Assembly: GCA_963666115.2 (NCBI GenBank)
Contig: CAXXET010000007.1
Span: 32,001 to 96,000, forward strand
Direction: 5' to 3'
From: Dehalococcoidia bacterium
GTDB taxonomy: Bacteria > Chloroflexota > Dehalococcoidia > UBA6926
Length of the DNA stretch: 64,000 nucleotides
Shown: piece by piece, positions 18,387 to 63,467 of the stretch
Layout: each line of letters opens with the position of its first letter
How positions within the stretch are numbered: position 1 is the first letter of the stretch
The notes under the pieces: model-generated
What the model was told of the DNA's origin: nothing
Database searches by the model: none
The model's input: only the letters and a program-made list of their open reading frames with translations
Translations under genes and position numbers: made by a program

Positions 18387-18537
18387 ATTCTTCGCTGCGC
18401 TCAGAATGACGGTTCGAGGACGTTACTGGGTTTGGCTGCACTCCAAGTTGTAGATTCCCGCGTGCGCGGGAATGACGGGTGAGTGCGGGCGGGTATGCGG
18501 TGGGGGTTCACCCTTCGACTGGGCTCAGGGTGAACGG
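18387..18537. repeat. Cluster of three REP-like palindromes
   Basis: ATTCTTCGCTGCGCTCAGAATGAC (18387-18410), GATTCCCGCGTGCGCGGGAATGAC (18453-18476), GTTCACCCT..AGGGTGAAC (18506-18535). Confidence 0.85.
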
Positions 18538-18565
18538 GAGGGGTGGGTCTGGCTGAGCGGCCGGC

Positions 18566-18802
18566 TTAGGGTGGGGAGGTATAGATGCGCCGGGTGGGTT
18601 CGGCGGCGAAGGCGAAGCAGGCGAGGAGGTCCAGGCGGGTGAGTTGGGGGTAGCGCTCATAGAGTTGTTCCTCGGATTTCCTTTCGGCCAGAAACTCCAA
18701 GACATCGTGGAGGGTGATGTTCTTGCCGATGAGCACAGGCTGTGGATGCCCGTCTACTTTCTCGATAGCTATGTAGTCCCAGTAGTTGTCAGCTTCGCCC
18801 AT
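18566..18802 (-). CDS. DUF433 family protein (divergent)
   Basis: PQPVLIGKNITLHDVLEFLA...YPQLTRLDLLACFAFAA. Confidence 0.8.
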   Translation of the reverse strand: MGEADNYWDYIAIEKVDGHPQPVLIGKNITLHDVLEFLAERKSEEQLYERYPQLTRLDLLACFAFAAEPTRRIYTSPP

Positions 18803-18817
18803 AACGTCGGTCTAACT

Positions 18818-18925
18818 TTAGTGGCCCGCTCGGCCCATTAGGTGAAGGTGGGAGGAGTCCGGATACAACTCTCTCAGAAGATACACCAGGTCAGGCGACA
18901 GATTTTGATCGAACAGGAGTCGCGC
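18818..18925 (-). pseudogene. Truncated DUF5615-type PIN toxin remnant
   Basis: Own translation ARLLFDQNLSPDLVYLLRELYPDSSHLHLMGRAGH*; GCG at expected start codon, stop after 35 codons. Confidence 0.75.
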
Positions 18926-19157
18926 TTGGCCAATCCCACATGGTTCGCTTGCCTACACGCGCTGCGAAATCACAGCAGGCGCTGATGTCATCACGCGTCA
19001 GGTACGGGAAATCGCCCAGAACCTCTTCGATGGTCATGCCGCCTGCGAGGTACTCAAACACGTCGTAGACGGTCAGCCGCATTTTGCGGATGCACGGCTG
19101 GCCGCTGCGCTTGCCCGGCTCAAACGTGATGTAGTCTTCGTATTTGACGGCGCCCAT
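18891..19157 (-). CDS. DUF433 family antitoxin
   Basis: ITFEPGKRSGQPCIRKMRLTVYDV..GMTIEEVLGDFPYLTRDDISAC. Confidence 0.92.
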   Translation of the reverse strand: MGAVKYEDYITFEPGKRSGQPCIRKMRLTVYDVFEYLAGGMTIEEVLGDFPYLTRDDISACCDFAARVGKRTMWDWPSATPVRSKSVA

Positions 19158-19214
19158 GATGCTCCTCCGAATACTATCCCCATTGTACCCGCATTGGAGA
19201 AGTGCCGGGGAGTA

Positions 19215-19679
19215 TCAGGGGGTAGTGGCCCAGCGGGCCAGGGCCTTGTCCAGCGAGGTTATTTCGGTGACTGAGGTGTAGTAGTAGTCCTGCCAGCCTT
19301 TTTCAGGCAGGCCGGTGAAGAGCATCAGGTTGAGCGGGTAGTTCTCGCTGTCCGTGGCGCGGCGGAAATCGTCCCGGAACAGGAACGTCGGCTTCTTGAG
19401 CGCGATGGCCATTCCGAGTTCGACCATGACGCCCTCGTCCGGGGGGACGCCGTTGACGATGGCGAATGTGGCATCGCTCTCGACGACGTCCTCGTAGTCC
19501 TTTTGCCCCACCTGGTAGGCCCATCCCTCCTGGGTGACGTCGACCTGGTTATTCCGCGCGAAGGGCTCCCAGACCTCCAGCCCCAATTCTTGCAGGGCAG
19601 CGATTATCGGCGGCAGCAGCAGGGCGCGCTGCTGCTCAGAAAAACCGTAGGGATTTGCCAGGTAGATCGTCTTCGCCAT
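19215..19679 (-). CDS. Nucleoside 2-deoxyribosyltransferase family protein
   Basis: IYLANP, PDEGVMVELGMAIALKKP, NLML. Confidence 0.88.
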   Translation of the reverse strand: MAKTIYLANPYGFSEQQRALLLPPIIAALQELGLEVWEPFARNNQVDVTQEGWAYQVGQKDYEDVVESDATFAIVNGVPPDEGVMVELGMAIALKKPTFLFRDDFRRATDSENYPLNLMLFTGLPEKGWQDYYYTSVTEITSLDKALARWATTP

Positions 19680-19688
19680 GGCGGGGGC

Positions 19689-20864
19689 TTATCGTCTGAG
19701 CGGTTGGCGGGCGCGGTAGGTTCCGACGCGCCAGAGCCATTCCATAGGGCCGAATCGGTATCGGGCCAGCCACGCGGGCGACCACCACAGCTGGATCAGC
19801 CAGACGCCCAGCACGAAGACAAGGACCGTCGCGCGGCCTATCTCGACATCGGCGAGCAGCCAAGTCAGGACCAGGACGCCGAGGACGGTCTGCGAGAGGT
19901 AGTTGGTCAGGGCCATGCGGCCGACGGCGATGAATCGGTCCTTGAGCCACATCAGCCCGCTCGTCCGCTGCCACAGAATGATGAGGCTCATGTACCCAAG
20001 CGAGGCGGGGATGGTGCCGAACGTGTTGGGAATCTCGCCGATGAACGAAACCTCGCGGCCATAGTCGGCCGCATGCGTGATGACGACGCCAACCGTGGCA
20101 AGCGACAACCCGACGGCAAGTCCGCCAATCGCCATCCTCCGGTAGAACCGATCGGAGAGGGCGCCCTGCATGAACCCCGTCCGGTACAGCCCGGCGCCTG
20201 CGAGAATCAGGCCGAGCGCGCGCATGAAGTAGGCGAAGACTACCAGGCCGGAAATGGCGTCATAGTCGTTCCCCGATGGCGTAACTCCGGCCTCGGGCTG
20301 TGTCCAGATGCCGGCGAGCGACACGTCCGTCGTGTCGACCCAGCCCTGGAGCATGAGGGACGGGATCACGGATGCCAGATAGATGATCACGCCGAGCACG
20401 ACCATGGCGCGGGACGGCAGCTTTCTGAGCAGCAGGAGGACGAATGCGGAGAGCGCATACGCCGTTAGGACATCCCCCTCCCAGATGAACATGTGAATGA
20501 TGCCCATGACGAGCAGCAGGATATTGCGCCACGCGTTCAGCAGGGTTGGGCGCTTTTCACGCCGCGCCACCCGTTCGATGAACAGGAAGATGCCCGCGCC
20601 AAACAGCAGCGAGAAGATGCCCATGAACTTCTGGTCGACCAGTATCTCACCGAGGATGGCGACGGCCATGTCGAGGCCGGTATCAGAGCCTCCCGCGCTG
20701 ATGTTGCGATACGGCACCATGCCGTAGGCAAAGGAGACGGCGTTCATCAGCAGGATCCCGAGGACGGCGACGCCGCGAATCAGGTCGAGGCTGAGGATGC
20801 GGTCCGATTCCGCGACGGGGCCGCGCGCGGCAGCGGGTTGGTCACTCACGGGTTGGTCACTCAT
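19689..20864 (-). CDS. DUF418 family membrane protein
   Basis: LDLIRGVAVLGILLMN, FSLLFGAG, VGRMALTNYLSQ, FGPMEWLWR. Confidence 0.9.
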   Translation of the reverse strand: MSDQPVSDQPAAARGPVAESDRILSLDLIRGVAVLGILLMNAVSFAYGMVPYRNISAGGSDTGLDMAVAILGEILVDQKFMGIFSLLFGAGIFLFIERVARREKRPTLLNAWRNILLLVMGIIHMFIWEGDVLTAYALSAFVLLLLRKLPSRAMVVLGVIIYLASVIPSLMLQGWVDTTDVSLAGIWTQPEAGVTPSGNDYDAISGLVVFAYFMRALGLILAGAGLYRTGFMQGALSDRFYRRMAIGGLAVGLSLATVGVVITHAADYGREVSFIGEIPNTFGTIPASLGYMSLIILWQRTSGLMWLKDRFIAVGRMALTNYLSQTVLGVLVLTWLLADVEIGRATVLVFVLGVWLIQLWWSPAWLARYRFGPMEWLWRVGTYRARQPLRR

Positions 20865-20873
20865 GGGCAAAGG

Positions 20874-22307: not shown

Positions 22308-22316
22308 AAAATCTCC

Positions 22317-23090
22317 TTATTCACACGCCTGGTCAAGTCCAGGCAGGTTGCGCTGTCCAGCCAAATAGTAAGCCTGCTGACACTCCTCGTCGGAAGCAAA
22401 GCAAACAAGCGCGAAATACCAGTTCTCACTTGTAGTGCCATCATCTTGGTGATACTTGCCAGTAAGCTCGTAGGCAGCAAATGGGAGTATGTCGGCAAGC
22501 GCCGCTGGCGGGGAGAGTGGGGCTATCCATTCGGTGCTGATGTCGATAATCCCAGGATTCGGCAGAGCGCCGCTCTGCCGTGTGAAGGTACCCAGATCAT
22601 CACCCTGTCGGTAACATTCATCCTTCCAGAAGCCACGGCGGAGAGTCGCCTCACGAGCGTGCCAACTGAATTCCACGTCAACCCTTCCATCGGGAAATGG
22701 ATTTCGCCACCCCCCCCCAAAATCTGGTAGGAAGAGGTGATCGCCAGGACGAACAAAGCCCGCGCCATTTGCAAAGCCCCAAGGCTCAAAATTTAACCAT
22801 TGCCAAGCCGTAGCGGTTGGGATAGGCGTTGCTGTTACGACGATCACTTGAGGGGTCGGAACGGGTGCTGGCGTCGCCGCTACGATGATCACTTGAGGGG
22901 TTGGCGTGGAGGCTGGCGTCGCCGTGATTACAATGACGTTCGGCGTAGGCGTCGGGGCCGCCTCACTGGGCATTGGTGTGCTCACCGGCGCGGCAATATC
23001 CGTTGGAATAGCGTCGACACGCGTACACGCCATGGCAAGAATGGCCGCCGTGGCAGATAAGCCGACGAACATAACCGATGTTCGCATCAC
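22317..23090 (-). CDS. Hypothetical lipoprotein with 15-aa Pro/Thr repeats
   Basis: Signal ending LAMAC; TPTP(N/Q)VIxxxATP three times (45-bp period, GATCACTTGAGGGG at 22842 and 22887). Confidence 0.75.
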   Translation of the reverse strand: MMRTSVMFVGLSATAAILAMACTRVDAIPTDIAAPVSTPMPSEAAPTPTPNVIVITATPASTPTPQVIIVAATPAPVPTPQVIVVTATPIPTATAWQWLNFEPWGFANGAGFVRPGDHLFLPDFGGGWRNPFPDGRVDVEFSWHAREATLRRGFWKDECYRQGDDLGTFTRQSGALPNPGIIDISTEWIAPLSPPAALADILPFAAYELTGKYHQDDGTTSENWYFALVCFASDEECQQAYYLAGQRNLPGLDQACE

Positions 23091-23176
23091 TCCCTCAGCA
23101 GCCCCGGGCCCACACCTCGTGCCCAGACAGACTCCGCCGATGCCATTGACACCAAGCCATGTTTTCTTGGCTGCGC

Positions 23177-23530: not shown

Positions 23531-23739
23531 CGTCATCCCGTCTGTCTCCTTCTGCGCTGTCCTGTCCGACGACCACGATTCGCGCGTGATCACCAGTCGG
23601 GGCCTCTCGCCCATGGGACTTGCCGTAAAGGCTGCCCCGACATTCAGCGCCCAAGGATGCTGCGGCGTTCTCCGGCCGACTACGTGGTTGGTGCAAGCGA
23701 TTGTGCGGTCGATAGTGTCCAAACACACCTGTCAGGTGA

Positions 23740-33378: not shown

Positions 33379-34580
33379 CTATTCCTCCGGCCGCACCCGC
33401 GCCTGCGTGCGGATGGGCAGGCCCCAGAGGTGGATGAAGCCGGGCGAGGCCGATTGGTCAAACACATCGCCCTCGTCGTAGGTGGCCAAAGCATGCTGGT
33501 ACAGCGCGTAGTCGCTCTTGCGGCCCACCACCGTCGCGTGCCCCTTGTGGAGCTTGACGCGCACCGCGCCCGTGACCGCCCGCTGGCTGCTGTCGACATA
33601 CGCCTGCAGGTCCTCCCGCAGCTGGCTGAACCAGAGTCCGTCGTACACCAACTGCGCGTACTCGCGGGACACATTCTCGCCGAACCGCACCTGGTCCTTC
33701 GTGAGAACCATGCCCTCCAACGCCTTGTGCGCGTTGAGCAGGATCGTCGCCGCCGGCGCCTCCATATATCTCACGTGATTTGATGCCGACCAAGCGGTCT
33801 TCAATGTGGTCGATGCGCCCGACGCCGTGCTCGCCGCCAATCCTTTGAGAGGGTTTCCACAAGATCGACAGGCTCCATCTCCGCGCCGTCCAGCGCGATG
33901 GGGACGCCCTGCTCAAACTGCACTTCAACGTAGCGCGGCCTCATCCGGCGCCTCATGCGGGCGCGACCGTCCCACTCGTAGGCGTTCTCCGGCGGCTCGC
34001 GCCACGCGTCCTCCAGCGCCCCCGCCTCGATGCTGCGCCCCCAGAGGTTGTCGTCGGTGGAATAGGGCTTTTCGAGAGTGGAGGGCACGGGGATTTCATG
34101 CTCGCGGGCGTAGGCGATCTCTTCGACGCGGGTCATGCCCCACTCGCGGGCAGGAGCCACCACCTTGAGATCAGGGGCGAGCGCGCCGACGGACACGTCG
34201 AGCCGCACCTGGTCGTTGCCCTTGCCGGTGCAGCCGTGGGCGACGGCGGTTGCGCCCTCCTGCCGCGCGGCCTCCACCATGAGGCGGGCGATTAGCGGCC
34301 TGCCCAGCGCCGTGGCGACGGGATAGACGCCCTGGTAAAGCGCATTGGCCTTGAGGGCGGGAAAGACGAACTCGCGGATGAACTCGTCGCGCACGTCGGC
34401 GATATGCGCCCCGACCGCGCCGGATTCAAGCGCCCTCTGCCGGATCTCATCCAGGTTGTCGACGTTGCCCAGGTTAGCCGTCAGGGTAACCACGTCATAG
34501 CCGTAGTTCTCCTGGATCCACCGCACCGCAACGGACGTATCAAGCCCACCGCTATAGGCAAGTACAAGTTTCTCAGGCAT
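33379..34580 (-). CDS. argG: Argininosuccinate synthase with several frameshifts
   Basis: [48 protein letters not shown] spread over three frames (33750-33970). Confidence 0.92.
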
Positions 34581-34597
34581 GCGGCGCGGCCCTTGCG

Positions 34598-34960
34598 TCA
34601 TTCCCGCGACTCGACGTAGGACAACATGCGGTGGACAAATAGGTGGACGAGCGGGCGGTCGCCTTCGACCTCGTAGTCTTCCATTTCATCATGGTAGAAA
34701 TTCTTGTGGAACTTCTCCGCCGCCGCGAAGCCGCCCGCAAAGAACACCTCGTCGATCTCACCGGCCACTCGCTGCACAACGTTCTTCATGGCCCGGTGGG
34801 AGCGGCATTCCCAGCCGTGCTTTTCCGCCGCGGCCATGATGGCGTGTGTGGCGGCGCCCCACAGCTTCTCGGACGCCTGTAGATGATCCCCTGCCCCGAA
34901 CTCCTCATCAGACGCGGTTAGGAAATCCAGGGCCGTTTGGGCGTGCTCAGACTGATTCAT
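34598..34960 (-). CDS. PaREP1 family (HEPN-like) protein
   Basis: GDHLQASEKLWGAA..., SH, AEKFHKNFY. Confidence 0.8.
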   Translation of the reverse strand: MNQSEHAQTALDFLTASDEEFGAGDHLQASEKLWGAATHAIMAAAEKHGWECRSHRAMKNVVQRVAGEIDEVFFAGGFAAAEKFHKNFYHDEMEDYEVEGDRPLVHLFVHRMLSYVESRE

Positions 34961-41682: not shown

Positions 41683-41748
41683 GCACGCGAGGACGCCACG
41701 CGACTTGTCCAGCGCGGAGTTCGCTCGAAGCGTCAGGATGAGCGGCGG

Positions 41749-52458: not shown

Positions 52459-52485
52459 CTCTCCGTCACCCCCGCGCTCCCCATT

Positions 52486-52510
52486 CCGTCATTCCCGCGC
52501 ACGCGGGAAC
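52486..52510. repeat. REP/dRS3-like palindrome
   Basis: CCGTCATTCCCGCGCACGCGGGAAC, near-exact reverse complement of the 18453 copy. Confidence 0.85.
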
Positions 52511-52546
52511 CCCGCCCCGCCCCTTTCGGAGTAGGATAGATACAGA

Positions 52547-52623: not shown

Positions 52624-52686
52624 GTATCCTGCCCTCACAGATACACCGGCGATCAGGCCACCGAGCGGATGGGGAGGAAAGGTCAA

Positions 52687-53034
52687 ATGGTAGAGTCGGC
52701 CCAGCAGGATGACGTGCAATCGGAGGCGTACATTCTGCTGACCGGAGTCGTTGAGCGCGAGGACGATCAATACGTTTCACTCTGCCCGGAACTTGGCGTA
52801 ACCAGTTGCGGCGACACCGTCGAAGACGCCTTTGCGATGCTTGCGGATGCCATAGCCCTCCATTTGGAAGGACTCGTCGAGATCGGCACCCTCGATGATG
52901 TCCTGCGAGAACAGAACATCAGGATCGAGCTGGAGCCCCCACCTTTTGAGTACCGCCCCAGGCTTCCCGTCCCCGAACAAGCAGGGGCGAATGGCCGCAT
53001 ATACCAGTTTTATCGGACACCGCTGCCAGCGTGA
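52687..53034 (+). CDS. HicB-family antitoxin
   Basis: VEREDDQYVSLCPELGVTSCGDTVEDAFAMLADAIALHLE. Confidence 0.88.
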   Translation: MVESAQQDDVQSEAYILLTGVVEREDDQYVSLCPELGVTSCGDTVEDAFAMLADAIALHLEGLVEIGTLDDVLREQNIRIELEPPPFEYRPRLPVPEQAGANGRIYQFYRTPLPA

Positions 53035-53209
53035 CGACGATGGCGTCAAGTCGGTGGGCGCACCTCTGCACCACCCATCGCGCGATGGCGAGTCCGGGCT
53101 ACACGTGGGTGCGCATCGGACGCCAAAAGGGATTCGAATAGCGACAGACATAGCCTAGTCGTGTCACAATGAAGGTGGCGACGCTAAGGGATAGTGCCGG
53201 GGTGAGAGA

Positions 53210-54985
53210 TTGAAGACGGAGACTATTGGCTTCAAGACGCTAGTCGATCATGCCGCATCGGGTAAGTTCAGGCTTCCTGAGTTTCAACGAGATTGGAAGT
53301 GGACGCGGGCGAAGGTCATGCGCCTTTACGATTCGGTCCGAAAGAACTACCCGATCGGGGCATTCCTGACGCTTGAGGCCTCGAACCGCCTCAATCTGTC
53401 TCCTCGCCTCTTCGAGGGCGTTGCTCAGGAAAAGGATTCAATAGGATCCTATGTGCTCGACGGCCAGCAGCGCATTACCGCTGGTCTAACGCTTTACAGA
53501 GGGCTTGGATCATCACACTATTTCTTGAATCTAGCCTATTTGTGGGAAAGGGCAGTCGAAGTAGCCCCTGATATTGCCGATCCAGACGTCCCCACTCCCG
53601 AGCATTCCAAGGAAGGCTTGCGCGCTCTGGCAGAGGACCTCGACGAGGACGACAAGTACCTCGTTGCGCGACGCCGCTACAACAATCCAATCGACCTTGT
53701 CGACTCGCATCTGCTATGGACTGCCGCACTCGCGGACAACGATCTGTTTGGGGACGCAAAGGAGCGGTATCTGAAGCAACACCCGAATCGTCGCAAGTTT
53801 TTGGAGAGATTCATTGACACATATTTCAAGATTGGGCCTCCGCCTACCGTTCCGCTGACAGAACTCGACGAGGGAATGCCGATCGAGGCGATAACTCGCG
53901 TGTTCGCCACGCTCAACACTTCTGGCCAGCGACTGACTCCTGTTGAGATTGTTGTTGCGGTTCTCTATTCGCATGGAATTCACCTCCGACAAGACATAGA
54001 TGAATTCAAGGAACTATCGGCTTACTATCGGCACATAGACGCCAATGGTGAATTACTCTTGCAAACGGTGGCGCTGCTGGAACGTGAGAATCCCAAGAGG
54101 TCTTTGTTGCCGAAGACGATAACGCAGATCAATTACAGAAAGCGAAAGAATGATGCGATTGACGCGCTAGACAGGGTCGGGGAATTTCTGACGAATCGCC
54201 TTGGGGCCGGACTAGACCACACGGGACAGTTGATTCCATATCCTGCAATTCTCCCTCCACTCGGCATTGCGCTCGCCAAAGTTGAATCCGTCTACAGTGG
54301 TCCCAGCCACGAGAAGGCAAGATGGCATGACCGGCTTGAGCGATGGTTTGTAGGTACGGTCATCAGCCAACGTTATACAGAGGCGCAGCCGACAACGCAG
54401 GCAAGAGATGAACGGGAACTGTCGGAGTGGATTGATTCGAACGGAGCGAACGAGCCTTCCTGGCTGAAGAACGTTCGCGTAGGCTCCTTGGACACGATCA
54501 AGCCCTCCAGCGCAATCGGTAAACTCATTTCGATGCTGATTAGTAGGAGGCAGCCTAAGGATCCCCTGAACAAGGAGCCTGTCGGGGGAACTGGCGCCGC
54601 CATTGTCTCAGCGCATGGTCACCACATCTTTCCCAAGGCTTTCGTGGCTGACTTCCTAGGCAATGGTGGAAGGGCACCTGATTCCGACTTGTCTCTGAAC
54701 GTGATGCCTATCACGGGCGATACGAACCGAAGATGGGCTAAGATGAACCCTTCTGATCAGGTGAAGGACGTTCGGGATAATTGGCCAAACGAGTTGACCG
54801 CCCTATTTGACACCTCATTCATTGATGCTGAGTGCTTGGAACTGATGCAACGACAAGATAAGACTCAGGGCGACTATCTTGAGTTCATCAGCAAGCGGGG
54901 CAAGGTGATACAGAACCACCTCGCATCTGAATGGGATTTCCTGCTCGACTCGGCCCAAATGGAAGATGACGAGGAGGCCGAGTAA
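53210..54985 (+). CDS. DUF262 plus HNH-like (GmrSD-type) protein
   Basis: LPEFQRDWKW, LDGQQR, VFATLNTSGQRLT, C-terminal HHIFPK...N; more AT-rich than backbone. Confidence 0.85.
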   Translation: MKTETIGFKTLVDHAASGKFRLPEFQRDWKWTRAKVMRLYDSVRKNYPIGAFLTLEASNRLNLSPRLFEGVAQEKDSIGSYVLDGQQRITAGLTLYRGLGSSHYFLNLAYLWERAVEVAPDIADPDVPTPEHSKEGLRALAEDLDEDDKYLVARRRYNNPIDLVDSHLLWTAALADNDLFGDAKERYLKQHPNRRKFLERFIDTYFKIGPPPTVPLTELDEGMPIEAITRVFATLNTSGQRLTPVEIVVAVLYSHGIHLRQDIDEFKELSAYYRHIDANGELLLQTVALLERENPKRSLLPKTITQINYRKRKNDAIDALDRVGEFLTNRLGAGLDHTGQLIPYPAILPPLGIALAKVESVYSGPSHEKARWHDRLERWFVGTVISQRYTEAQPTTQARDERELSEWIDSNGANEPSWLKNVRVGSLDTIKPSSAIGKLISMLISRRQPKDPLNKEPVGGTGAAIVSAHGHHIFPKAFVADFLGNGGRAPDSDLSLNVMPITGDTNRRWAKMNPSDQVKDVRDNWPNELTALFDTSFIDAECLELMQRQDKTQGDYLEFISKRGKVIQNHLASEWDFLLDSAQMEDDEEAE

Positions 54986-55107
54986 GCCACTCAGCCCAAT
55001 CCCCTACACTGGTCTGGACGCCTACGGAAGCGCCAGAATACAATCGCCGCGCCGGTCATGCCGGTGACGGAGCGGGTAATAAGCTAAGGCGGTTCGCTGG
55101 AGACAAC

Positions 55108-55656
55108 ATGGGAGTGGCACGGGCAAGCATAAGGACAAGGCTGAAGGAGATTCTCGCGACGCGGGATTACCGAGTGCCGTCCGACGGCCAGTTTGACGGG
55201 GCGGAGGCACCTCGGTCGTATCTGCTACACCTCCTGCGCGAACTGAAGGCGTCGCCGCAGGCGCTCCCTGATGCAGGCGCGTGGAAGGTGGTTTTTACGG
55301 ACGGAGCGAGTAAGCCAGTGCTGTTTGACATGGAGCCAGCCCCGGGGGACGTCATTCCGCATGAGGCCGCCTCGCAAGACGACCTGATCAATGAGTTCGC
55401 CCCGAAGGCCGCTTATCTGGTCCTCGTTCGCGGGTCATGGAATGGGCAGGCGCGGCTGGTATCCTATGATTCGGCAGAGTTCCTTTGGGAACCGAGAGTT
55501 ACGCAGCTAACCCAACTTATCGAGGATGGAACCATCGTCGTTGATGCTGGCGCGTCTTCCGGGGATGATGGCAGGACGCGAGACCACAGCACGAAGTTCT
55601 ACATAGGGCCGGATGACCTTCATTCGCTCTACTCCAAGAATGAGGTGGTGCAGTAG
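55108..55656 (+). CDS. Degenerate MvaI/BcnI-like restriction endonuclease homologue
   Basis: PDAGAW, LF..EP.P and C-terminal RDHSTKFYI..DL..LY resemble the family; recognition by eye. Confidence 0.45.
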   Translation: MGVARASIRTRLKEILATRDYRVPSDGQFDGAEAPRSYLLHLLRELKASPQALPDAGAWKVVFTDGASKPVLFDMEPAPGDVIPHEAASQDDLINEFAPKAAYLVLVRGSWNGQARLVSYDSAEFLWEPRVTQLTQLIEDGTIVVDAGASSGDDGRTRDHSTKFYIGPDDLHSLYSKNEVVQ

Positions 55657-55730
55657 GCAAATCCCCGCACCGTCAATACCACCGCCCCTCACACCGCCAC
55701 CCGCTCCAGGCGTGGAATACTCAGCGGGGC

Positions 55731-56423
55731 CTACGCGGCGCGGAGTCGGGATTCCCAGTCAAGCGCGGCCTCAACCTGTTTCATCGTTATGCCATAGTCG
55801 TCAGGCATGGATTCCTTTGAGTCGCCCCCTGCGACTGAGCCATAGACGGCGCTTGTCGGCACCCGTGTTCCCGCGATGCACGGAGAGCCAAACTGTATCT
55901 TGGGATTCAATCTGATCTCTTCCTGTGGCTGCCACCATTTCGCGTGCTCGGTTTCATCATCGAATACAAGGCCGTGAAGAGGGATAATGTACTCCCGCAA
56001 CATCTCAAACGCCGCCTGGCCATATCGGCTTGCTGCTATCAAGCGGTCGGCCCATTCGGAATATATGTCACCGGCGCCATGCCACAGAGTTGCCGTGGCG
56101 AACGACTTTAGCGCGCCCGTATAATCTCGCAGCCACTCCTCCCCTTCACGTATGGCGGGCCACGTCACGCCAGCCGCTCGCAGAGCAGCTATGACCCGCA
56201 TCGACACCAGGTCCTCAAAATCGATCAGCACATTTCCCGCCGGAGCGCCTCTCCAACCTGGATCGGCTACGCCGGTTCGAATCCAGCGGCGCACTTTGCC
56301 AGCGTCAATGTTGACGGATTCCGCCCGCGGCATCGTCACAGAGATAATTCCCGCCGCCTCCGGCGCGGTGTAGATACCCGCGAATGGTTCCAACTGCGGC
56401 CGCTCCTTTACCGCCGTTGCCAT
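55731..56423 (-). CDS. HTH-DUF433 antitoxin (VapB45-like)
   Basis: GIYTAPEAA, F.DL..RVI..LR, NPKIQFGSPCIAGTRVPT. Confidence 0.85.
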   Translation of the reverse strand: MATAVKERPQLEPFAGIYTAPEAAGIISVTMPRAESVNIDAGKVRRWIRTGVADPGWRGAPAGNVLIDFEDLVSMRVIAALRAAGVTWPAIREGEEWLRDYTGALKSFATATLWHGAGDIYSEWADRLIAASRYGQAAFEMLREYIIPLHGLVFDDETEHAKWWQPQEEIRLNPKIQFGSPCIAGTRVPTSAVYGSVAGGDSKESMPDDYGITMKQVEAALDWESRLRAA

Positions 56424-56569
56424 GGCTCCCTCCACGATCCAAACTCTCAATGCGAGACGTTATTAGCGTAACGCTTTTGCCGCAGGGTGTGTACGCTCCG
56501 CCAATCCACCCACCCCACCCCCAATCCCCTATACTGTCTGAACGGAACATCACAAGGGAGACTCTGAGC

Positions 56570-57445: not shown

Positions 57446-57480
57446 GCGCCCCTTGTCATCCTGAACACGGAGAGAAGGAC

Positions 57481-58059
57481 ATGGCCACAACACAGCAGGA
57501 ACTGACTGTCATGGGCACCCGCCCCATCACGGCGGACGAGCTGCTGACGATGCACTCGGAAGGCAAGCGCGGAGAACTGATCCGGGGGGTGTTCTGTCCA
57601 ACTATGCCGACATTTGAGGAGCACGGAGCCATCGTTGCCAAACTCGTGATGCTGTTGGGAACGGTGGTATTGCCCAACAAGCTGGGCCGACTCATGGCGT
57701 CCGATTCCGGCGTGCAGCTTGAATGGGACCCCGATACCGTGCGTGAGCCCGACATCGCTTTCATCACGGAGGAGCGCCGCCCGCAGGGGACAGTCGTCCG
57801 CAGGTACACGGAAATCCCGCCCGACCTCGTCATCGAGGTCGCCTCATCGAGCGATTCAACCAACGCCGTAACAGACAAGGCGCGCATGTGGGTCGGCGCC
57901 GGCGTGCGCCTGGTATGGGTAATCTGGCCGGAAACGCGAATGATCGACGTGCATCGCCCCGGCGAACAGACCACCACCCTGCGTGAAACAGACACGCTAA
58001 CCGGCTCAGACGTCCTCCCCCAATTCACCTGCCTCGTGAAGGACATTTTTGAGGTGTAG
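57481..58059 (+). CDS. Uma2 family endonuclease
   Basis: ELIRG, H, VREPDIAF, PDLVIEVAS, GVRLVWVIWP. Confidence 0.92.
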   Translation: MATTQQELTVMGTRPITADELLTMHSEGKRGELIRGVFCPTMPTFEEHGAIVAKLVMLLGTVVLPNKLGRLMASDSGVQLEWDPDTVREPDIAFITEERRPQGTVVRRYTEIPPDLVIEVASSSDSTNAVTDKARMWVGAGVRLVWVIWPETRMIDVHRPGEQTTTLRETDTLTGSDVLPQFTCLVKDIFEV

Positions 58060-58098: not shown

Positions 58099-58125
58099 CC
58101 GTCATTCCCGCGAAAGCGGGAATCT
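58099..58125. repeat. REP/dRS3-like palindrome
   Basis: CCGTCATTCCCGCGAAAGCGGGAATCT. Confidence 0.88.
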
Positions 58126-58247
58126 AGTGCACAGTTCGCCAGCCTCTTGATTGAATGGGCGCAAACACGCTATGATACGAACGTATGCACGATAATTCTA
58201 CAGTTCCAAGAGCGATGCGCGGCGGCGCTCAGGAGAAAAAGCTCATA

Positions 58248-60110
58248 ATGCCTACAGATGACTCATCGGACGCCCCGGCCCAGCTTGATGGGCTAATAGA
58301 CGAGTTCAATGCCCTCGATCTTGATGTCAGTGGAGCAGATACTTACCTTGCGGTATCAGATCTGCTGAGGAGGGAATCCAAGTCAGCCCACGAGCGCGGC
58401 GCGGCGCAACTAGGCCATGCCCTAGGGCTACTTCAAGCTATATGCGACCTCACACATAGCCCTGACAATAGTGCCCAACCCTTTGGCCAGATGGTAGTTC
58501 TGACTGTCGACGAAATCACTGTTCTTGAGGGTTTGCTTGACCATGTACGGGCACCGCTTGTAAAGGGGCGCCTTGCCGACGTCCTGTGGATTCAAAGCCA
58601 ACCGCGTAAGCACGAATTCGCGCTCGCTGCCATTGACGCCTATATTGAAGTGCCGATCACGAGCGATTCTTGGTTCGGACATCAAGGCGACAATTGGCAC
58701 CGGGCCGCGGTTCTGTGTCGCCTTCTGGGACAAGTTGCTGCAGACAGAGAATTACAGTTAGAGCGATCTCTGCTTGACGTCGTCGCGAATGCCAAGACTG
58801 AAGACAAGTATTTGGCTGCTGGCGTCGCCGATGTCTTGGACGCTCAAGGACTCGGTAAGAGTGAGGCGCAGAACATCGCCGCTCAACTGGAGGCATTGGC
58901 ACACCAGTTTGCCGGAGCAAGAGATTTCACTCGCTGCTTTGATTACTATCAGGAAGCGGCGAAATGGTTCGACCGGGCAGGCGAAAATCAAAAAGCCATT
59001 GAAATGACCATCGCGCAGGCAGAATCGTGCGTCATGGATGCCGAGGCCATTCTTGAGTCCGATGACTCTAGCCATATGAACGCAGCTATCTTCGTTGAGA
59101 ACGCGGTACAAATACTCCGGACGGTGCCCAGGGCAAGTAGGACGACATTGGACATTGACAAGAGGATACGTGAGCTTCGATTGCGTCTTGCTCAGTACAA
59201 TCAGGAGGCTGTGAATGAACTGAAGACGGTCAGTTTCGAATCGAATATCACGAAGCTTGTCAACAAGGCCCGAGACGCTGTAAAGGGGCGCTCTTTGCTA
59301 GGCGCTTTGGAGGCATTTGGCAGGCTCAGCCCGTTTCGAGTTCACGACCTGCAACGGCAAGCAAGCGAGATAATTGAAGAGTCTCCTCTACACGTGCTAC
59401 TCCCCCGCATCACCTATAGCGGTGACGGCAGGGTGAGCCATGTGTCTCCTGGGCTAACAATCGGCGATCCTGATAGCCGTGAACAGGCAGTAAAAGATCA
59501 GATGCTGCGTCTATATGGACAGGCATACGTCGCGGGTAGTGTGACGATTAGCATAAGGCCTGCCCTTGAGGTGCTGCATCTCGAACACAGGATTCGAGAG
59601 CAAGATTTTTTTACCTTGACCCGGAAATCTCCCATAGTTCCTATCGGGCGGGAGCGTTTGTTTGCAAAGGCTTTGTGGTCGGGATACTGCGGTGACTACG
59701 CAACAGCAGTCCACCTGCTTACTTCTCAGATGGAGCATCTTGTTCGTTCTCGCTTGAAGTCCGCTCGTGTAGTAACTACACTCCTTGACCCTACTGGGGT
59801 TGGAACAGAGAAGAGTCTTAATGCTCTGATGGATATGCAGGAAACCGAAGACCTGTTCGAGCCAGATTTGGCTTTCGAGATTCGAGCCATATTCTGTGAA
59901 TCGTTGGGCGGAAACCTGCGCAACGACGTCGCTCATGGACTTCTTGACGACCAGGAGAGCCAGGGTTACTGGTCTGTTTACGCATGGTGGCTAGTCTTGA
60001 AGCTGGTCTTCGGAAGCTACAGGGATGCCCTTATAGCAAGCCGGCAAGCAGCCGATTTAGAGGCTGAATCGGCTAACGCTGACGACGCACCCTCGTCAGA
60101 CGGAAAGTAG
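58248..60110 (+). CDS. DUF4209-like protein with C-terminal HEPN-type RxxxxH
   Basis: RLADVLW N-terminus; QMEHLVR...GGNLRNDVAHGL; more AT-rich. Confidence 0.75.
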   Translation: MPTDDSSDAPAQLDGLIDEFNALDLDVSGADTYLAVSDLLRRESKSAHERGAAQLGHALGLLQAICDLTHSPDNSAQPFGQMVVLTVDEITVLEGLLDHVRAPLVKGRLADVLWIQSQPRKHEFALAAIDAYIEVPITSDSWFGHQGDNWHRAAVLCRLLGQVAADRELQLERSLLDVVANAKTEDKYLAAGVADVLDAQGLGKSEAQNIAAQLEALAHQFAGARDFTRCFDYYQEAAKWFDRAGENQKAIEMTIAQAESCVMDAEAILESDDSSHMNAAIFVENAVQILRTVPRASRTTLDIDKRIRELRLRLAQYNQEAVNELKTVSFESNITKLVNKARDAVKGRSLLGALEAFGRLSPFRVHDLQRQASEIIEESPLHVLLPRITYSGDGRVSHVSPGLTIGDPDSREQAVKDQMLRLYGQAYVAGSVTISIRPALEVLHLEHRIREQDFFTLTRKSPIVPIGRERLFAKALWSGYCGDYATAVHLLTSQMEHLVRSRLKSARVVTTLLDPTGVGTEKSLNALMDMQETEDLFEPDLAFEIRAIFCESLGGNLRNDVAHGLLDDQESQGYWSVYAWWLVLKLVFGSYRDALIASRQAADLEAESANADDAPSSDGK

Positions 60111-60188
60111 GCTGTAGGCATCAACTACACTCCTAGTCGGCACCGTGTCCATCTCGACTGTATCGCAAGCCACCCTCGCTCTGCTAAA

Positions 60189-61478
60189 GTGTGGTACCGT
60201 CTTCATGATCAGGATTTCGATATGTGGCATGTAATCACAGAAGAGGATATCAAGTGCACAGAGTGCCCCCACACCATCCCACGTGGGGCGCTGTGCTTGT
60301 CACAGATGCCTCCCTTAATGCCAGATGACTTCAAGCGCAAGAAGTACGAGAATTTCTGCATCGACTGCACTGAATGCGATGCTGGCAAGCCTAGCTGCTA
60401 CGCTCGCCGGCTGAATCACTGGCACACCAGGGATGTGACCAGAGAGTCCCTCGCTTGTGCTCATTGTGGGCTGACGATACCACGATGGACATGGACAGCT
60501 TCTCAGAAAATCTACGCTTGGCCTCAACCCGAAATGGACTCTGACTCGGATCACGGTTCAGACCATTTCTACGGCGCAGCACCCGGAGTATCGACCGGGG
60601 CATCCCTTAGACCGCAACCTGCTGACTGGCATAATCTCAGCCCCGAGATGCAGCGACGATTCCAGAGAGGAGGGTTGGGTCGTGGCCTCGGCATTCGTTC
60701 TCGAAAGATGGCGCAGCGACTGTACGAGAAAGAGGTTCCTGCCCCTGTGCGAAACATGGGAGAGGCTGCCGTCAAGGATTTTCTGGACGGAAAGGATTTC
60801 AGCCACATTAGGTCAGTAGCCAATGATCCCTCAATGGCCAAGGCGCCGAGCAACGTAATCCTAGAAGATGCGGGGAAAAACAGAGCGCGAGGCAGTGCAA
60901 ATATGCCAAAGGCCGATCGTGCCGCCGCGAATCAAGCGAGACGTCCATCCGGGTTCAGAGCGGGAGGCAAGGCGGCGCTCAAGGGAGGTAGCAAGGCGGG
61001 AATCATTTCGGCAGCGCTAGAGGCTGTTGTATCGATTCCTGAGAATATCCTCCACTACAGGCGTGGCAGAAAATCTCGCCAACAAGCTGCCAAGGACGCG
61101 GGATTTGATACGGCCAAGGCGGGCGCCTTTGGGGTTGGGGTATGGGGGCTTTCAACAGGTGCACAAGCGATTGGAGTTGGGATACCACTCGGCCCTTTCG
61201 GGGTTCCACTTCAAATCGCTGGAGTCACTCTGATCGCTGGGACGGCCGCCTACCGCATTCACAAGGCATGGCAACACGACCTGCCATTGGACGAGTACAG
61301 GATATTCTTCTGCAAGGACACAGATTGCAAGGATCAGTTTGCCGAGAACCTCAGCAGAATCCCTGAGGAAAGCGCCGATCCGAAATTCCCGTGGCTCACG
61401 AAGGCAGTGACCATAGGTTTGGCTGCGGTCACTGTGCTAGCCATCAGCGGGCTCGTAGCTTGGAGCCTGCTGACATAG
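60189..61478 (+). CDS. Hypothetical Cys-rich / HNH-like / membrane protein
   Basis: Several CxxC motifs; DFSHIRS...SNVILED..KNRARG; Gly-rich hydrophobic segments and a terminal TM segment. Confidence 0.65.
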   Translation: MWYRLHDQDFDMWHVITEEDIKCTECPHTIPRGALCLSQMPPLMPDDFKRKKYENFCIDCTECDAGKPSCYARRLNHWHTRDVTRESLACAHCGLTIPRWTWTASQKIYAWPQPEMDSDSDHGSDHFYGAAPGVSTGASLRPQPADWHNLSPEMQRRFQRGGLGRGLGIRSRKMAQRLYEKEVPAPVRNMGEAAVKDFLDGKDFSHIRSVANDPSMAKAPSNVILEDAGKNRARGSANMPKADRAAANQARRPSGFRAGGKAALKGGSKAGIISAALEAVVSIPENILHYRRGRKSRQQAAKDAGFDTAKAGAFGVGVWGLSTGAQAIGVGIPLGPFGVPLQIAGVTLIAGTAAYRIHKAWQHDLPLDEYRIFFCKDTDCKDQFAENLSRIPEESADPKFPWLTKAVTIGLAAVTVLAISGLVAWSLLT

Positions 61479-61566
61479 GTGCTTAGTTTGTTGCCCTGGT
61501 TAGCGTAACTATCCCGTCACATTGCCCCCGCCTGCGCGGGGGATTCGGAAGCGTAAATCGGTAGCT

Positions 61567-61812
61567 CTAGCTGTCCCACGATGCCTTTTCTTCCGCCAAA
61601 TAGGCGTCCACCTCTTCGGCTGACTGGAACAGGCGGCGCTCAGGGCCGCTGTTGAGAATCTCCATGATTGAGCGGCCTGCGGGCTTCGACTCCGGCTCGG
61701 ATTCGTGCCGCACGACAATTTCGACCGTCTGGCCGACCGGCAGCTCCGCGTCCGCCACCTCGATCCTGCCGCCCGGCAGGACTTCCGCCTTTAGGTGTAC
61801 TTCTCGCAGCAT
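61567..61812 (-). CDS. Small antitoxin-like protein of the type usually preceding a PIN toxin
   Basis: VLPGGRIEV...LPVGQTVEIVV; FQSAEEVDAYLAEEKASWD. Confidence 0.7.
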   Translation of the reverse strand: MLREVHLKAEVLPGGRIEVADAELPVGQTVEIVVRHESEPESKPAGRSIMEILNSGPERRLFQSAEEVDAYLAEEKASWDS

Positions 61813-61896
61813 CTCTGATGACCCTCCGGCTGCCATTGTAGTCGGTTTGGACCGCTCATCCCCACCCCGCCGTCCGCAACACGATAAACTAGACAC

Positions 61897-62832
61897 ATGA
61901 CCGGCAGCATACTGGACACTATCGGCAACACGCCCCTCGTTGAGCTCAAGCGGCTTCAGCCCAAGCCGGGCGTCCGCCTTTTTGCCAAGCTGGAGGGGCA
62001 GAACCCCACCGGCAGCGTGAAGGACCGCATCGCCCTCCTCATGGTGGAGAACGCCGAGGCGGACCGCACGCTCGGCGACGGCCGCATCATCCTCGAACCC
62101 TCCAGCGGCAACACCGGCGTCTCCCTCGCCATGGTCGCCCGCTACAAGGGCTACGACGTGACCGTCGTCCTGCCGGACAACGTCACCGAAGAGCGGCAGA
62201 CGCTGATCGAGTCATTCGGCGCGAACGTCGTGTTCAGCGAGGGCCGTCACGGCACCAATGGCGCGATCGAAGTCGCGCAGCAGATGGCGAACGACGAGCC
62301 TGACAAGTACGTGATGTTGTACCAGTACGGCAACGAGGCCAATCCGCGCGCGCACTACGACGGCACGGGCGAGGAGATCATCCGTCAGCTGCCGGAGGTG
62401 GACACGTTCGTCGCGGGGCTTGGCACGGGCGGCACGCTCACCGGCGTCGGGCGGCGTCTCAAGGAGCACAACCCGGACGCGCGAATAATAGCAGTCGTGC
62501 CGCACCCGGAGGAGCGCATCCAGGGCCTGCGTTCGCTCGAGGACGGGTTCATCCCGCCGATCCTGGATACGACCGTGCTGGACGGCCAGTTCATCATCAC
62601 GTCGCGTGAATCATTCGAGAAGACGCGGGAACTGTTGCAGACGGAGAGCATCTTCGCGGGCATCTCATCCGGCGCGGTGCTGGCGTGCGCGCAGCGGCTG
62701 GCGGAGCGGATGGACAGCGGCAACATCGTCTGCCTGTTCGCGGACGGCGGCTGGAAGTACCTGTCAACGGGGCTGTGGACGCGCCCGCTCGATGAGATCG
62801 ACGCGGAGATGGGGCGCAAGATCTGGTGGTAG
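61897..62832 (+). CDS. cysM: PLP-dependent cysteine synthase (CysM-like)
   Basis: IGNTPLV, NPTGSVKDR, SSGNTG, GTGGT, ADGGWKYLSTG. Confidence 0.88.
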   Translation: MTGSILDTIGNTPLVELKRLQPKPGVRLFAKLEGQNPTGSVKDRIALLMVENAEADRTLGDGRIILEPSSGNTGVSLAMVARYKGYDVTVVLPDNVTEERQTLIESFGANVVFSEGRHGTNGAIEVAQQMANDEPDKYVMLYQYGNEANPRAHYDGTGEEIIRQLPEVDTFVAGLGTGGTLTGVGRRLKEHNPDARIIAVVPHPEERIQGLRSLEDGFIPPILDTTVLDGQFIITSRESFEKTRELLQTESIFAGISSGAVLACAQRLAERMDSGNIVCLFADGGWKYLSTGLWTRPLDEIDAEMGRKIWW

Positions 62833-63398
62833 CCGACGACGGCGGCCCGTCACAGAGCACGAACGCGCCGAGCAGATTCGGCAGGCAGTTCGTGCCATTC
62901 GCCGCGGTCACGCTGGCCGTCTACATCGCCGACCAGGCGACCAAGCTGCTGATCGTCAGCAATCTGCGCCTGTATGAGTCGGTCCTTGACACGGGCCTGC
63001 TGCGGCTGACCTACGTGACGAACAGCGGCAGCGCGTTCGGCCTGCTGCGCGGCCAGACGGAGTTCCTCGTCCTGGTCAGCCTGATCGGCGTTCTGGGCGT
63101 CATCTTCTACTACCGCGCCAACGGACGCGAAAGCGCGCTGCTCCGGTACTCCCTGGCCCTGTTGCTGGGCGGGGCGCTGGGGAACCTGACAGACCGCCTC
63201 GTGCGCGGCGCAGTCGTCGATTTCATCAGCGTGCGCGTGTGGAGCGACTACTACTTCCCGACGTTCAACGTGGCGGATTCCGCGCTGACCATCGGCCTGT
63301 TCGCGCTGGCTTTCTACGTGCTGAGGAATCGGGCGACGGAGAAGAAGCGGGAGGCGGAGGATGGCGAGGGAGCTGATTCTTCGCTGCGCTCAGAATGA
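62826..63398 (+). CDS. lspA: Lipoprotein signal peptidase II
   Basis: DQATK, NSGSAFG, GALGNLTDR, VVDF, FNVADS. Confidence 0.95.
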   Translation: MVADDGGPSQSTNAPSRFGRQFVPFAAVTLAVYIADQATKLLIVSNLRLYESVLDTGLLRLTYVTNSGSAFGLLRGQTEFLVLVSLIGVLGVIFYYRANGRESALLRYSLALLLGGALGNLTDRLVRGAVVDFISVRVWSDYYFPTFNVADSALTIGLFALAFYVLRNRATEKKREAEDGEGADSSLRSE

Positions 63399-63467
63399 CA
63401 CACGAAATAAGGGGCAGGATTCCTATGGACTGTCATTCTGAACGGAGCGCAGCGGAGTGAAGAATCT
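63375..63467. repeat. Inverted pair of REP-like palindromes
   Basis: GATTCTTCGCTGCGCTCAGAATGACA (24-nt core identical to the 18387 copy) and TGTCATTCTGAACGGAGCGCAGCGGAGTGAAGAATCT. Confidence 0.85.

What the first reader, a model, noticed from the sequence alone, without database searches (positions are those of the whole stretch)
18387..63467. GTCATT-headed palindrome family marks accessory-gene borders: possible integrase-independent cassette system
Seen: related palindromes at 18387, 18453, 18506, 34596 (half copy), about 41720 (degenerate), 52463/52486, 57455, 58099, about 61524, 63375 and 63431. The copies at 18454 and 58104 match ATTCCC-N8-GGGAAT exactly, and 52491 differs by one base. 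Most abut accessory genes (DUF433 pair, PaREP1, tRNA/HicB, Uma2, DUF4209, antitoxin). Known: ATTCCC-N8-GGGAAT is the Neisseria dRS3 consensus, targeted by a Piv/IS110-type recombinase. Inference: these repeats may be insertion or recombination sites for single genes, acted on by an enzyme encoded elsewhere in the genome.
Basis: partly seen in the sequence, partly recalled or inferred. Interest (0 to 1): 0.75.

Follow-up and report, generated by a model that had tools for sequence, protein, structure and literature searches.

The report
Ssn-type hairpin repeats, not gene cassettes
The palindromes are real copies of a small DNA hairpin repeat that fills the gaps between genes of this bacterium; the family was described in 2025 as the target of a tiny enzyme that cuts single-stranded DNA, so this is a new example of a known system and not a new way of inserting genes.

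Summary
The repeats are real. Genome-wide there are 246 full copies of three GTCATTC...GAATC hairpin subfamilies, against 0 in the reversed genome, and 208 of 246 lie outside called genes. The window holds 5, about the genome average.

They are the NTS/SRM repeats of the Ssn system (Chenal et al. 2025, PMC11893778). The copy at 58100-58127 equals the published NTS consensus. The genome has one 98-aa single-domain GIY-YIG gene on another contig, flanked by these hairpins on both sides. No RAYT or IS110 gene was found.

The cassette idea fails. Against a complete relative, repeats look enriched beside accessory genes only because those gaps are longer (length-stratified odds ratio 1.09, p 0.73). 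Of 153 strain-specific gene blocks, 115 have no repeat at either border.

Three details go beyond the paper's main text:
- The commonest subfamily escapes the published search motif.
- 5' half-copies stack upstream of full copies (71 of 246, against 6 with 3' halves).
- The GTC-head strand lies on the locally C-rich strand in 225 of 246 copies.

The last two also hold in relative G013 but not in another lineage, G034.

This scan has met Ssn/NTS repeats before on other DNA.

The parts
18386..18410 (-). Full copy, subfamily A (GTCATTCTGAGCG-CAG-CGAAGAAT type), 1 mismatch
   Evidence: sequence
18450..18477 (-). Full copy, subfamily B (dRS3 core, GCAC loop); matches the published SRM search motif
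   Evidence: DNA fold -8 kcal/mol, z -3.0
18506..18535 (-). Hairpin of a second family (D, GTTCACCCTGAGCC...GAAGGGTGAAC), variant with one extra base
   Evidence: DNA fold -8 kcal/mol, z -4.4
34597..34609 (+). Orphan 5' half-copy (head plus 5' arm only); its TCA is the stop codon of the PaREP1 gene on the minus strand
   Evidence: 71 such orphan heads genome-wide
52465..52476 (+). Degenerate 5' half-copy, 23 nt upstream of the next full copy
   Evidence: geometry as
52487..52514 (+). Full copy, subfamily B (3 mismatches), between a core solute-binding gene and tRNA-Arg; matches the published SRM motif
58100..58127 (+). Full copy, subfamily B, identical to the published NTS consensus CGTCATTCCCGCGMAVGCGGGAATCYRG; lies between the Uma2 gene and a 3.4-kb strain-specific stretch
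   Evidence: DNA fold -9 kcal/mol, z -4.8
61523..61548 (+). GC-rich hairpin of a separate small family (H, 10 copies); not GTCAT-headed
63375..63399 (-). Full copy, subfamily A, exact; overlaps the end of the lspA-like gene, in a core-core gap
63432..63466 (+). Long variant (E, 6 copies) of subfamily A
57455..57484 (+).
41720..41745 (-).

Best explanation
The GTCATTC-headed hairpins are Ssn-related motifs (SRM/NTS repeats). They are short intergenic DNA hairpins recognised, as single-stranded DNA and on one strand only, by a small single-domain GIY-YIG endonuclease of the Ssn family, which cuts a few bases 5' of the GTC head.

Shown here:
- The repeat family and its copy number.
- Its intergenic spread.
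- Its identity with the published NTS consensus.
- One intact 98-aa GIY-YIG gene (G000:C4:200673-200969) bracketed by the repeats.
- The same bracket at its homologs in other genomes.
- High gain and loss of 25-50 bp hairpin insertions between species.

Inferred by homology with Neisseria meningitidis SsnA, not tested here: that this protein binds and cuts these hairpins as ssDNA, and that the pair restricts or modulates incoming or exposed ssDNA.

The repeats behave as small self-spreading or slippage-prone elements scattered over all intergenic DNA. They are not borders of gene cassettes.
For: Repeat family:
- 246 full copies against 0 in the control, and 208 of 246 outside called genes.
- 150 of 1516 intergenic gaps carry one.
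- The copy at 58100-58127 equals the NTS consensus quoted.
- The published SRM motif hits 121 sites against a mean of 21.9 in 10 dinucleotide shuffles.

Nuclease gene:
- Only two GIY-YIG matches in the genome: a 677-aa open frame and a 98-aa ORF (Pfam E 5e-16).
- The small gene has a full copy plus half-copies upstream, and a 5-unit half-copy array plus a full copy downstream.
- In an alignment of 14 homologs, Y10, Y21, R31, H35, E68 and N87 are invariant. The Y-Y-E spacing is the same as the Y6/Y17/E64 residues whose mutation abolished SsnA cleavage.
- At 12 of 12 homolog loci in relatives, SRM-type hairpins bracket the gene. Diverged paralogs carry a changed head, CTCAT.

Co-occurrence outside the genus:
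- The 3 genomes with the gene have 8, 11 and 66 copies.
- The 9 without it have 0 to 14.

Homologs at 55-65% identity include a Sphingomonas liriopis locus. That species is listed with 577 SRM and ssnA present in the paper's Supplementary Data 4.
Against: - No biochemical test was possible.
- I could not align the protein directly with N. meningitidis SsnA or assign it to CDD cd10448.
- 8 of 18 genus genomes carry 49-99 copies but no homolog detectable with this query, including three single-contig genomes. The repeats therefore persist without this gene.
- Subfamily A, the commonest (90 of 246), does not fit the published SRM motif. It is a weak hairpin by standard DNA parameters (-2.1 kcal/mol, z -0.16).
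- One nuclease gene faces at least three subfamilies in this genome.
- Family D seems tied to a different small GIY-YIG gene that this genome lacks.
Confidence: 0.85

Rival explanations
1. Cassette system: the hairpins are insertion or recombination sites at which single accessory genes are gained and lost.
For: In the window, 4 of 6 repeat-bearing gaps touch a gene with no syntenic ortholog in G013. The 58100-61560 stretch, found in none of 21 genus genomes, starts at a B copy. The crude odds ratio for repeats beside accessory genes is 2.06, p 4e-5.
Against: - Density per kb is equal across gap classes, and the length-stratified odds ratio is 1.09, p 0.73.
- Of 153 strain-specific blocks, 115 have no repeat at either border and 5 have both, with 3.0 expected. 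Of 74 empty sites, 4 hold a repeat.
- 58 core-core gaps gained or lost a repeat without any gene change.
- The window's tRNA-Arg island lies 3' of the tRNA, whereas the repeat lies 5' of it.
Confidence: 0.04
2. REP-type elements mobilised by a RAYT (Y1 transposase), or target sites of an IS110/Piv recombinase.
For: General likeness: short intergenic palindromes with a conserved 5' head, enriched in convergent gaps (42 of 193, against 82 of 1084 tandem gaps). From memory, not from any call: IS110-type elements and filamentous phages insert at dRS3 in Neisseria.
Against: - No PF01797 and no PF01548 match in a genome scored 100% complete.
- The head is GTCAT, not GTAG.
- Neighbouring copies are direct, not inverted (50 against 2).
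Confidence: 0.03
3. RNA-level elements: intrinsic terminators or mRNA-stabilising hairpins.
For: Some preference for gene 3' ends: one copy per 1.0 kb in convergent gaps, per 1.5 kb in tandem gaps and per 2.1 kb in divergent gaps.
Against: - No orientation preference relative to transcription in tandem gaps (65 same, 51 opposite).
- No T run follows the hairpin (sequences).
- 26 divergent gaps carry copies.
- No Rfam family matches at gathering score.
- Orientation follows GC skew, not genes.
Confidence: 0.04
4. Mostly inert relics: the repeats spread in the past, and most copies are now acted on by nothing. Local replication slippage accounts for the half-copy arrays.
For: - 8 of 18 genus genomes keep 49-99 copies without a detectable homolog.
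- G013, which lacks a close homolog, has as high a share of exact copies (72 of 123) as G000 (139 of 246).
- G013 shows the same half-copy polarity, 31 against 4.
Against: - Only 13 repeat-bearing orthologous core-core gaps are shared, against 58 seen in G000 only and 35 in G013 only, at 88% median protein identity. That implies recent gain or loss.
- Many copies are still identical to consensus.
- The ssn ORF in G000 is intact, with all catalytic residues.
Confidence: 0.12

Closest known systems
NTS / Ssn-related motifs (SRM) with SsnA, the GIY-YIG site-specific ssDNA nuclease of Neisseria meningitidis (Chenal et al., Nat Commun 2025, PMC11893778; Results, Discussion and one Methods section read, Supplementary Data searched)
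   Same: - Identical head, core and 3' C (CGTCATTCCCGCG-loop-CGCGGGAATC).
- Hundreds of intergenic copies.
- A roughly 95-aa single-domain GIY-YIG gene bracketed by the repeats.
- The same catalytic Tyr-Tyr-Glu spacing.
   Different: - The host is an uncultured Dehalococcoidia-type genus (named from the record titles), not among the RefSeq genomes in which I found Chloroflexota rows.
- The commonest subfamily has G.A mismatches in the stem and escapes the published motif.
- Copies are nearly all in direct orientation, with stacked 5' half-copies and a 90% strand bias against GC skew. The paper's main text mentions none of these.
- No cleavage data exist here.
Neisseria dRS3 repeats, NIMEs and minimal mobile elements
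   Same: The ATTCCC-N8-GGGAAT core. Repeats cluster in mosaic intergenic arrays, and in places next to variable genes.
   Different: - No evidence here that the repeats mediate gene exchange.
- No IS110/Piv gene.
- The arrays here are made of hairpins and half-hairpins, not 50-150 bp RS units. That description of RS units is recalled from memory.
REP/BIME elements with RAYT, and the IS200/IS605 family (ssDNA hairpin-guided HUH transposases)
   Same: Short intergenic hairpins with a conserved 5' guide sequence, and an enzyme that reads the hairpin on one DNA strand. From memory: a replication-strand bias is known for IS200/IS605.
   Different: - The enzyme class is GIY-YIG, not HUH/Y1, which was tested and not found.
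- The head sequence differs.
- Copies are direct, not inverted pairs.

Membership tests
NTS / SRM repeats | Sequence fits the NTS consensus CGTCATTCCCGCGMAVGCGGGAATCYRG | tested here: met
   Window 58100-58127 fits at every position. 43 exact B copies genome-wide.
NTS / SRM repeats | Published degenerate SRM motif enriched over dinucleotide shuffles | tested here: met
   121 observed against a mean of 21.9 (range 15-31) in 10 shuffles. Subfamily A is not captured by the motif.
NTS / SRM repeats | Forms a DNA hairpin | tested here: inconclusive
   B copies fold at -7.5 to -9 kcal/mol, z -2.8 to -4.8. A and E copies are no better than shuffles under standard parameters.
NTS / SRM repeats | Many copies, rarely inside genes | tested here: met
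   246 copies, 38 of them more than half inside called genes, in a genome that is 85.5% coding by my crude gene caller.
NTS / SRM repeats | An ssnA homolog in the genome, itself flanked by the repeats | tested here: met
   G000:C4:200673-200969 has copies on both sides. 12 of 12 homolog loci in relatives are bracketed.
NTS / SRM repeats | Bound and cut as ssDNA, on one strand only, a few nt 5' of the head | not testable with these tools
   Needs protein and oligos.
Ssn nucleases (CDD cd10448) | Single-domain GIY-YIG protein of about 94 aa | tested here: met
   98 aa. PF01541 covers residues 8-79, and there is no other domain.
Ssn nucleases (CDD cd10448) | Catalytic Tyr, Tyr and Glu (Y6, Y17, E64 in Nm SsnA) | tested here: met
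   Y10, Y21 and E68 are invariant in 14 homologs, with the same spacing.
Ssn nucleases (CDD cd10448) | Assignment to cd10448, or tblastn E below 1e-10 to Nm SsnA | not testable with these tools
   No CDD library and no Neisseria sequence were on hand. There is only indirect support: 61% identity to a Sphingomonas liriopis locus, in a species listed as ssnA-positive.
dRS3 as IS110/Piv target | IS110/Piv-type recombinase present | tested here: not met
   No PF01548 match.
REP / RAYT | Y1 (HUH) transposase gene present | tested here: not met
   No PF01797 match; completeness 100.
REP / RAYT | Inverted pairs (REPIN/BIME) | tested here: not met
   Neighbouring copies lie on the same strand 50 times and on opposite strands 2 times.
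Integron-like or cassette system | Repeats bracket mobile genes, and empty sites keep one repeat | tested here: not met
   Both borders carry a repeat in 5 of 153 blocks (3.0 expected). 4 of 74 empty sites carry a repeat.
Integron-like or cassette system | Integron integrase nearby | not tested
   I ran no integrase search. None of the 52 window proteins scanned matched an integrase family.

The most novel reading that the evidence does not exclude
In this genus the spread or survival of Ssn-type hairpins is coupled to the replication strand.

- About 90% of copies of every subfamily have the cleavable GTC strand on the locally C-rich strand. If G-rich means leading, as is usual, that is the leading-strand template.
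- Copies carry polar tandem duplications that run from a few bases 5' of the head to the hairpin apex.

Both would be footprints of a strand-specific cut or stall where Ssn acts. They would make Ssn/SRM a GIY-YIG counterpart of the replication-coupled ssDNA systems IS200/IS605 and REP/RAYT.

A second small GIY-YIG gene bracketed by family-D hairpins in G013 hints at several nuclease-hairpin pairs that are lost and regained within one genus.
Probability: 0.25. Interest if true: 0.6.

Novelty: new member of a known kind. Interest (0 to 1): 0.33.

Why it matters
It settles what these conspicuous palindromes are. They are Ssn-type hairpin repeats with their small nuclease gene, here in an uncultured Chloroflexota lineage. 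It also removes a tempting but wrong 'new integron-like system' reading.

For people working on Ssn nucleases it offers three things:
- A natural panel of at least three co-resident hairpin variants, one outside the published search motif.
- Genomes that keep the repeats without the gene.
- Two strand-polar patterns, half-copy stacking and a 90% orientation bias. These could show on which replication strand the enzyme meets its sites, a point the 2025 paper leaves open for bacteria other than Neisseria.

Tried and rejected
- Rfam at gathering score on the window: only tRNA-Arg.
- Y1/RAYT and IS110 family searches in the genome: nothing.
- PDB by sequence with the 98-aa protein: nothing at E up to 0.01.
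- Full-text search for four of the repeat strings: one hit, a Neisseria pilus paper listed as containing the B string but not opened.
- Search for SsnA papers since 2024: only the 2025 paper.
- Search for dRS3 together with strand-bias terms: none of the 10 papers listed contained dRS3, so it does not show the bias is unpublished.
- Cassette and border tests: rejected.
- Nested insertion into hairpin loops, an earlier scan note on another genome, as the source of half-copies. It predicts equal 5' and 3' halves, but I see 71 against 6.
- Target availability as the cause of the strand bias. Intergenic C runs are themselves biased 579:224 (72%), which may contribute but is weaker than the 90% seen for repeats.
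- Generality of the strand bias. In the first 800 kb of G034 there is no bias (34 against 30) and there are no 5' halves (0 of 63). The rest of G034 could not be fetched, so this covers 64 of its 150 copies.
- Assigning leading and lagging strands. dnaA is not at a skew switch, and genes and tRNAs show no orientation bias against skew. The replication direction remains an assumption.
I used scripts instead.
Full report
**What is in the sequence.** ATTCCC-N8-GGGAAT is exact at 18454 and 58104 and one base off at 52491. Inside the window that pattern is not beyond chance: 4 matches at up to 2 mismatches against 2.19 expected.

The whole genome decides the matter. It has 2.07 Mb in 9 contigs, is 63.5% GC and is scored 100% complete.
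- A scan for GTCAT followed by a stem gave three dominant strings, all GTC-ATTC...GAAT-C:
  - A: 76 exact copies, with two G.A mismatches in the stem.
  - B: 43 exact copies plus 12 with another loop. This is the dRS3 core.
  - C: 22, 11 and 10 copies with three different loops.
- With up to 4 mismatches there are 246 full copies, against 0 in the reversed genome.
- The window holds 5 of them: 18386-18410, 18453-18476, 52488-52511, 58101-58124 and 63375-63399. The genome mean is about 7.6 per 64 kb.
- Other hairpin families share the same gaps:
  - D, 61 copies, with a GTTCA or GCTCA head. The window's 18506 is a variant of it.
  - E, 6 copies. This is the window's 63432.
  - H, 10 copies. This is the window's 61523.
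- 41720 and 57455 fit no model and do not fold.

So 10 of the 12 listed positions are real repeats, but they belong to at least five families.

**What it is.**
- Sequence match. A literature search on dRS3 led to Chenal et al. 2025 (PMC11893778). I read its Results, Discussion and one Methods section and searched its supplements.
  - The paper redefines about half of the Neisseria dRS3 copies as the oriented NTS, CGTCATTCCCGCGMAVGCGGGAATCYRG.
  - It defines wider Ssn-related motifs (SRM).
  - It shows that SsnA binds the hairpin as ssDNA only, on one strand, and cuts a few bases upstream. SsnA is a 94-aa single-domain GIY-YIG protein.
  - It reports that ssnA genes are typically flanked by their own repeats.
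  - Window 58100-58127 fits the NTS consensus at every position.
  - The published SRM motif hits 121 sites here, against a mean of 21.9 in 10 shuffles.
- The gene in this genome. There are only two GIY-YIG matches: a 677-aa open frame and a 98-aa ORF at C4:200673-200969.
  - The small gene has half-copies and a full C copy upstream. Downstream it has five 20-nt half-copy units and another full copy.
  - In an alignment of 14 homologs, Y10, Y21, R31, H35, E68 and N87 are invariant. The Y-Y-E spacing matches the residues whose mutation abolished SsnA cleavage.
- Homologs elsewhere. Relatives at 55-82% identity lie in Chloroflexota/Dehalococcoidia MAGs, Arenicellales, Sphingomonas and CPR bacteria.
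  - In most of these loci, GTCAT-headed hairpins stand on both sides with heads outward. Their stems differ by lineage.
  - All 12 homolog loci from relatives are bracketed. Two diverged paralogs have CTCAT heads.
- Rival enzymes. No Y1/RAYT gene and no IS110 gene was found.

I could not align the protein with the Neisseria one or run CDD, so membership in cd10448 rests on these indirect tests.

**Distribution among relatives.**
- The general pattern occurs in 18 of 18 genus genomes, usually with 41-148 copies.
- The ssn homolog occurs in 10 of 18. It was not found with this query in three single-contig genomes.
- Outside the genus, the 3 genomes with the gene have 8, 11 and 66 copies. The 9 without it have 0 to 14.
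- One genome, G027, has 27 matches to the gene, many with in-frame stops.

**Testing the cassette idea.**
- Method. I fetched the complete relative G013, 1.85 Mb, and compared it with a crude gene call of G000. That call has 1805 genes covering 85.5% of the genome. It yielded 1402 syntenic orthologs at a median 88% protein identity.
- Enrichment beside accessory genes. Gaps touching a non-syntenic gene carry a repeat in 75 of 517 cases. Core-core gaps do so in 76 of 999. The crude odds ratio is 2.06, p 4e-5.
  - Copies per kb of gap are 0.76, 0.62 and 0.73 for 0, 1 and 2 syntenic neighbours.
  - The length-stratified odds ratio is 1.09, p 0.73.
- Block borders. Of 153 G000-specific blocks, 115 have no repeat at either border, 33 have one and 5 have both, with 3.0 expected.
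  - Of 74 clean indels, 56 have none, 15 have one and 3 have both.
  - Only 4 of 74 empty sites in G013 hold a repeat.
- In the window:
  - The block 17186-19688 is absent from G013, and its repeats lie inside it, not at its edges.
  - The island 3' of tRNA-Arg (about 52650-56500) is absent from G011, and its repeat lies on the other side of the tRNA.
  - The stretch 58100-61560 is found in none of 21 genus genomes and does start at a B copy.
- Turnover. In 908 orthologous core-core gaps, 13 carry repeats in both genomes, 58 in G000 only and 35 in G013 only. Alignments show clean insertions of 25-50 bp that consist of the hairpin alone.

The repeats therefore come and go by themselves and do not carry genes.

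**How it most likely works.**
- By homology, the 98-aa nuclease should bind the GTC-strand hairpin in ssDNA and cut just 5' of it. In Neisseria this lowers integration of NTS-bearing transforming DNA.
- Whether the role here is restriction of ssDNA, control of recombination or plain selfish spread is not shown.
- The parts conserved across subfamilies A, B and C are the GTC head, the outer ATTC/GAAT pairs and the 3' C. These are the positions the paper found critical for cutting and binding. One enzyme could therefore serve several subfamilies. This is inference.

**Details beyond the paper's main text.**
- Subfamily A escapes the published motif and folds weakly.
- 5' half-copies, made of head plus 5' arm with an 18-22 nt period, stand directly upstream of 71 of 246 full copies. 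3' halves stand downstream of only 6.
  - G013 shows 31 against 4 of 123.
  - The unit runs from about 8 nt 5' of the head to the hairpin apex.
  - The paper's text has no 'tandem' and uses 'half' only for split oligos.
- Neighbouring copies are direct 50 times and inverted 2 times.
- The GTC strand lies on the locally C-rich strand in 225 of 246 copies in G000 and 110 of 123 in G013.
  - With skew taken from genes only, the figure is 222 of 246.
  - By subfamily it is A 84 of 90, B 85 of 100, C 56 of 56 and D 51 of 61.
  - Orientation flips where the skew flips.
  - Genes (884 against 921) and tRNAs (21 against 26) show no such bias.
  - The paper's main text does not mention lagging strand or GC skew.
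  - If the G-rich strand is the leading strand, as in most bacteria (abstract of PMC8941118, seen in the listing), the cleavable strand avoids the lagging-strand template. I could not verify the replication direction here.
- Limit on these patterns. In the first 800 kb of another Dehalococcoidia genome, G034, there is no bias (34 against 30) and there are no 5' halves (0 of 63). G034 has its own ssn and SRM variant. Both patterns are therefore features of this genus and not of the system in general. The remaining 1.5 Mb of G034 could not be fetched.
- G013 lacks a close ssn homolog. It has a different 98-aa GIY-YIG gene, 29% identical, bracketed by two family-D hairpins on each side.
  - A close homolog of that gene was found in no other of the 31 genomes searched.
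  - D hairpins occur in 14 of 18 genus genomes.

**Verdict.** This is a new member of a known kind, and the scan has met the same system before on other DNA.

Noticed in passing
G013 locus L093:720-1013 (minus strand): A second type of 98-aa single-domain GIY-YIG gene (Pfam E 4e-19, 29% identical to the G000 Ssn homolog), bracketed by two family-D hairpins on each side. A close homolog was found in no other of the 31 genomes searched, although D hairpins occur in 14 of 18 genus genomes and 61 times in G000.
   Followed up: partly
whole genome G000 and G013: GC-skew sign forms blocks of 50-300 kb. Hairpin orientation follows it in about 90% of copies, and intergenic C5+ runs away from repeats follow it 579:224. 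Genes and tRNAs show no orientation bias against it.
   Followed up: partly
window 52624-56500: Defence-type island directly 3' of tRNA-Arg: a HicB-like gene, a GmrSD_N protein (591 aa), an MvaI/BcnI-like gene and a DUF433-containing gene. It is absent from G011, where the tRNA abuts the ThiF-family gene. Some relatives carry a second partial tRNA copy.
   Followed up: partly
window 58185-61478: Two long ORFs (641 and 429 aa) in a stretch of about 53% GC. No DNA match to them was found in any of the 21 other genus genomes. They were not annotated further.
   Followed up: no
window 33379-34580 (minus strand): The argininosuccinate synthase gene is split by a frameshift. The N-terminal 259 aa and the C-terminal 128 aa are in different frames.
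   Followed up: no
G000:C3:14594-19100 (outside the window): At least 16 tandem units of 297 bp that each begin with a GTCATTCAAGTC-like string. They are unrelated to the hairpin family and look like a repetitive coding region.
   Followed up: no
G027 (same class), many contigs: 27 matches to the ssn protein in one 2.2-Mb genome, several with in-frame TAA or TAG stops, plus 66 B-type hairpins. The gene-bearing element seems to have multiplied and decayed there.
   Followed up: no
L017 (G007) and L018 (G014), about 1390-1880: Diverged ssn paralogs (47-48% identity) are bracketed by hairpins whose head is CTCAT instead of GTCAT. This is a possible co-variation of enzyme and cut-site head.
   Followed up: partly
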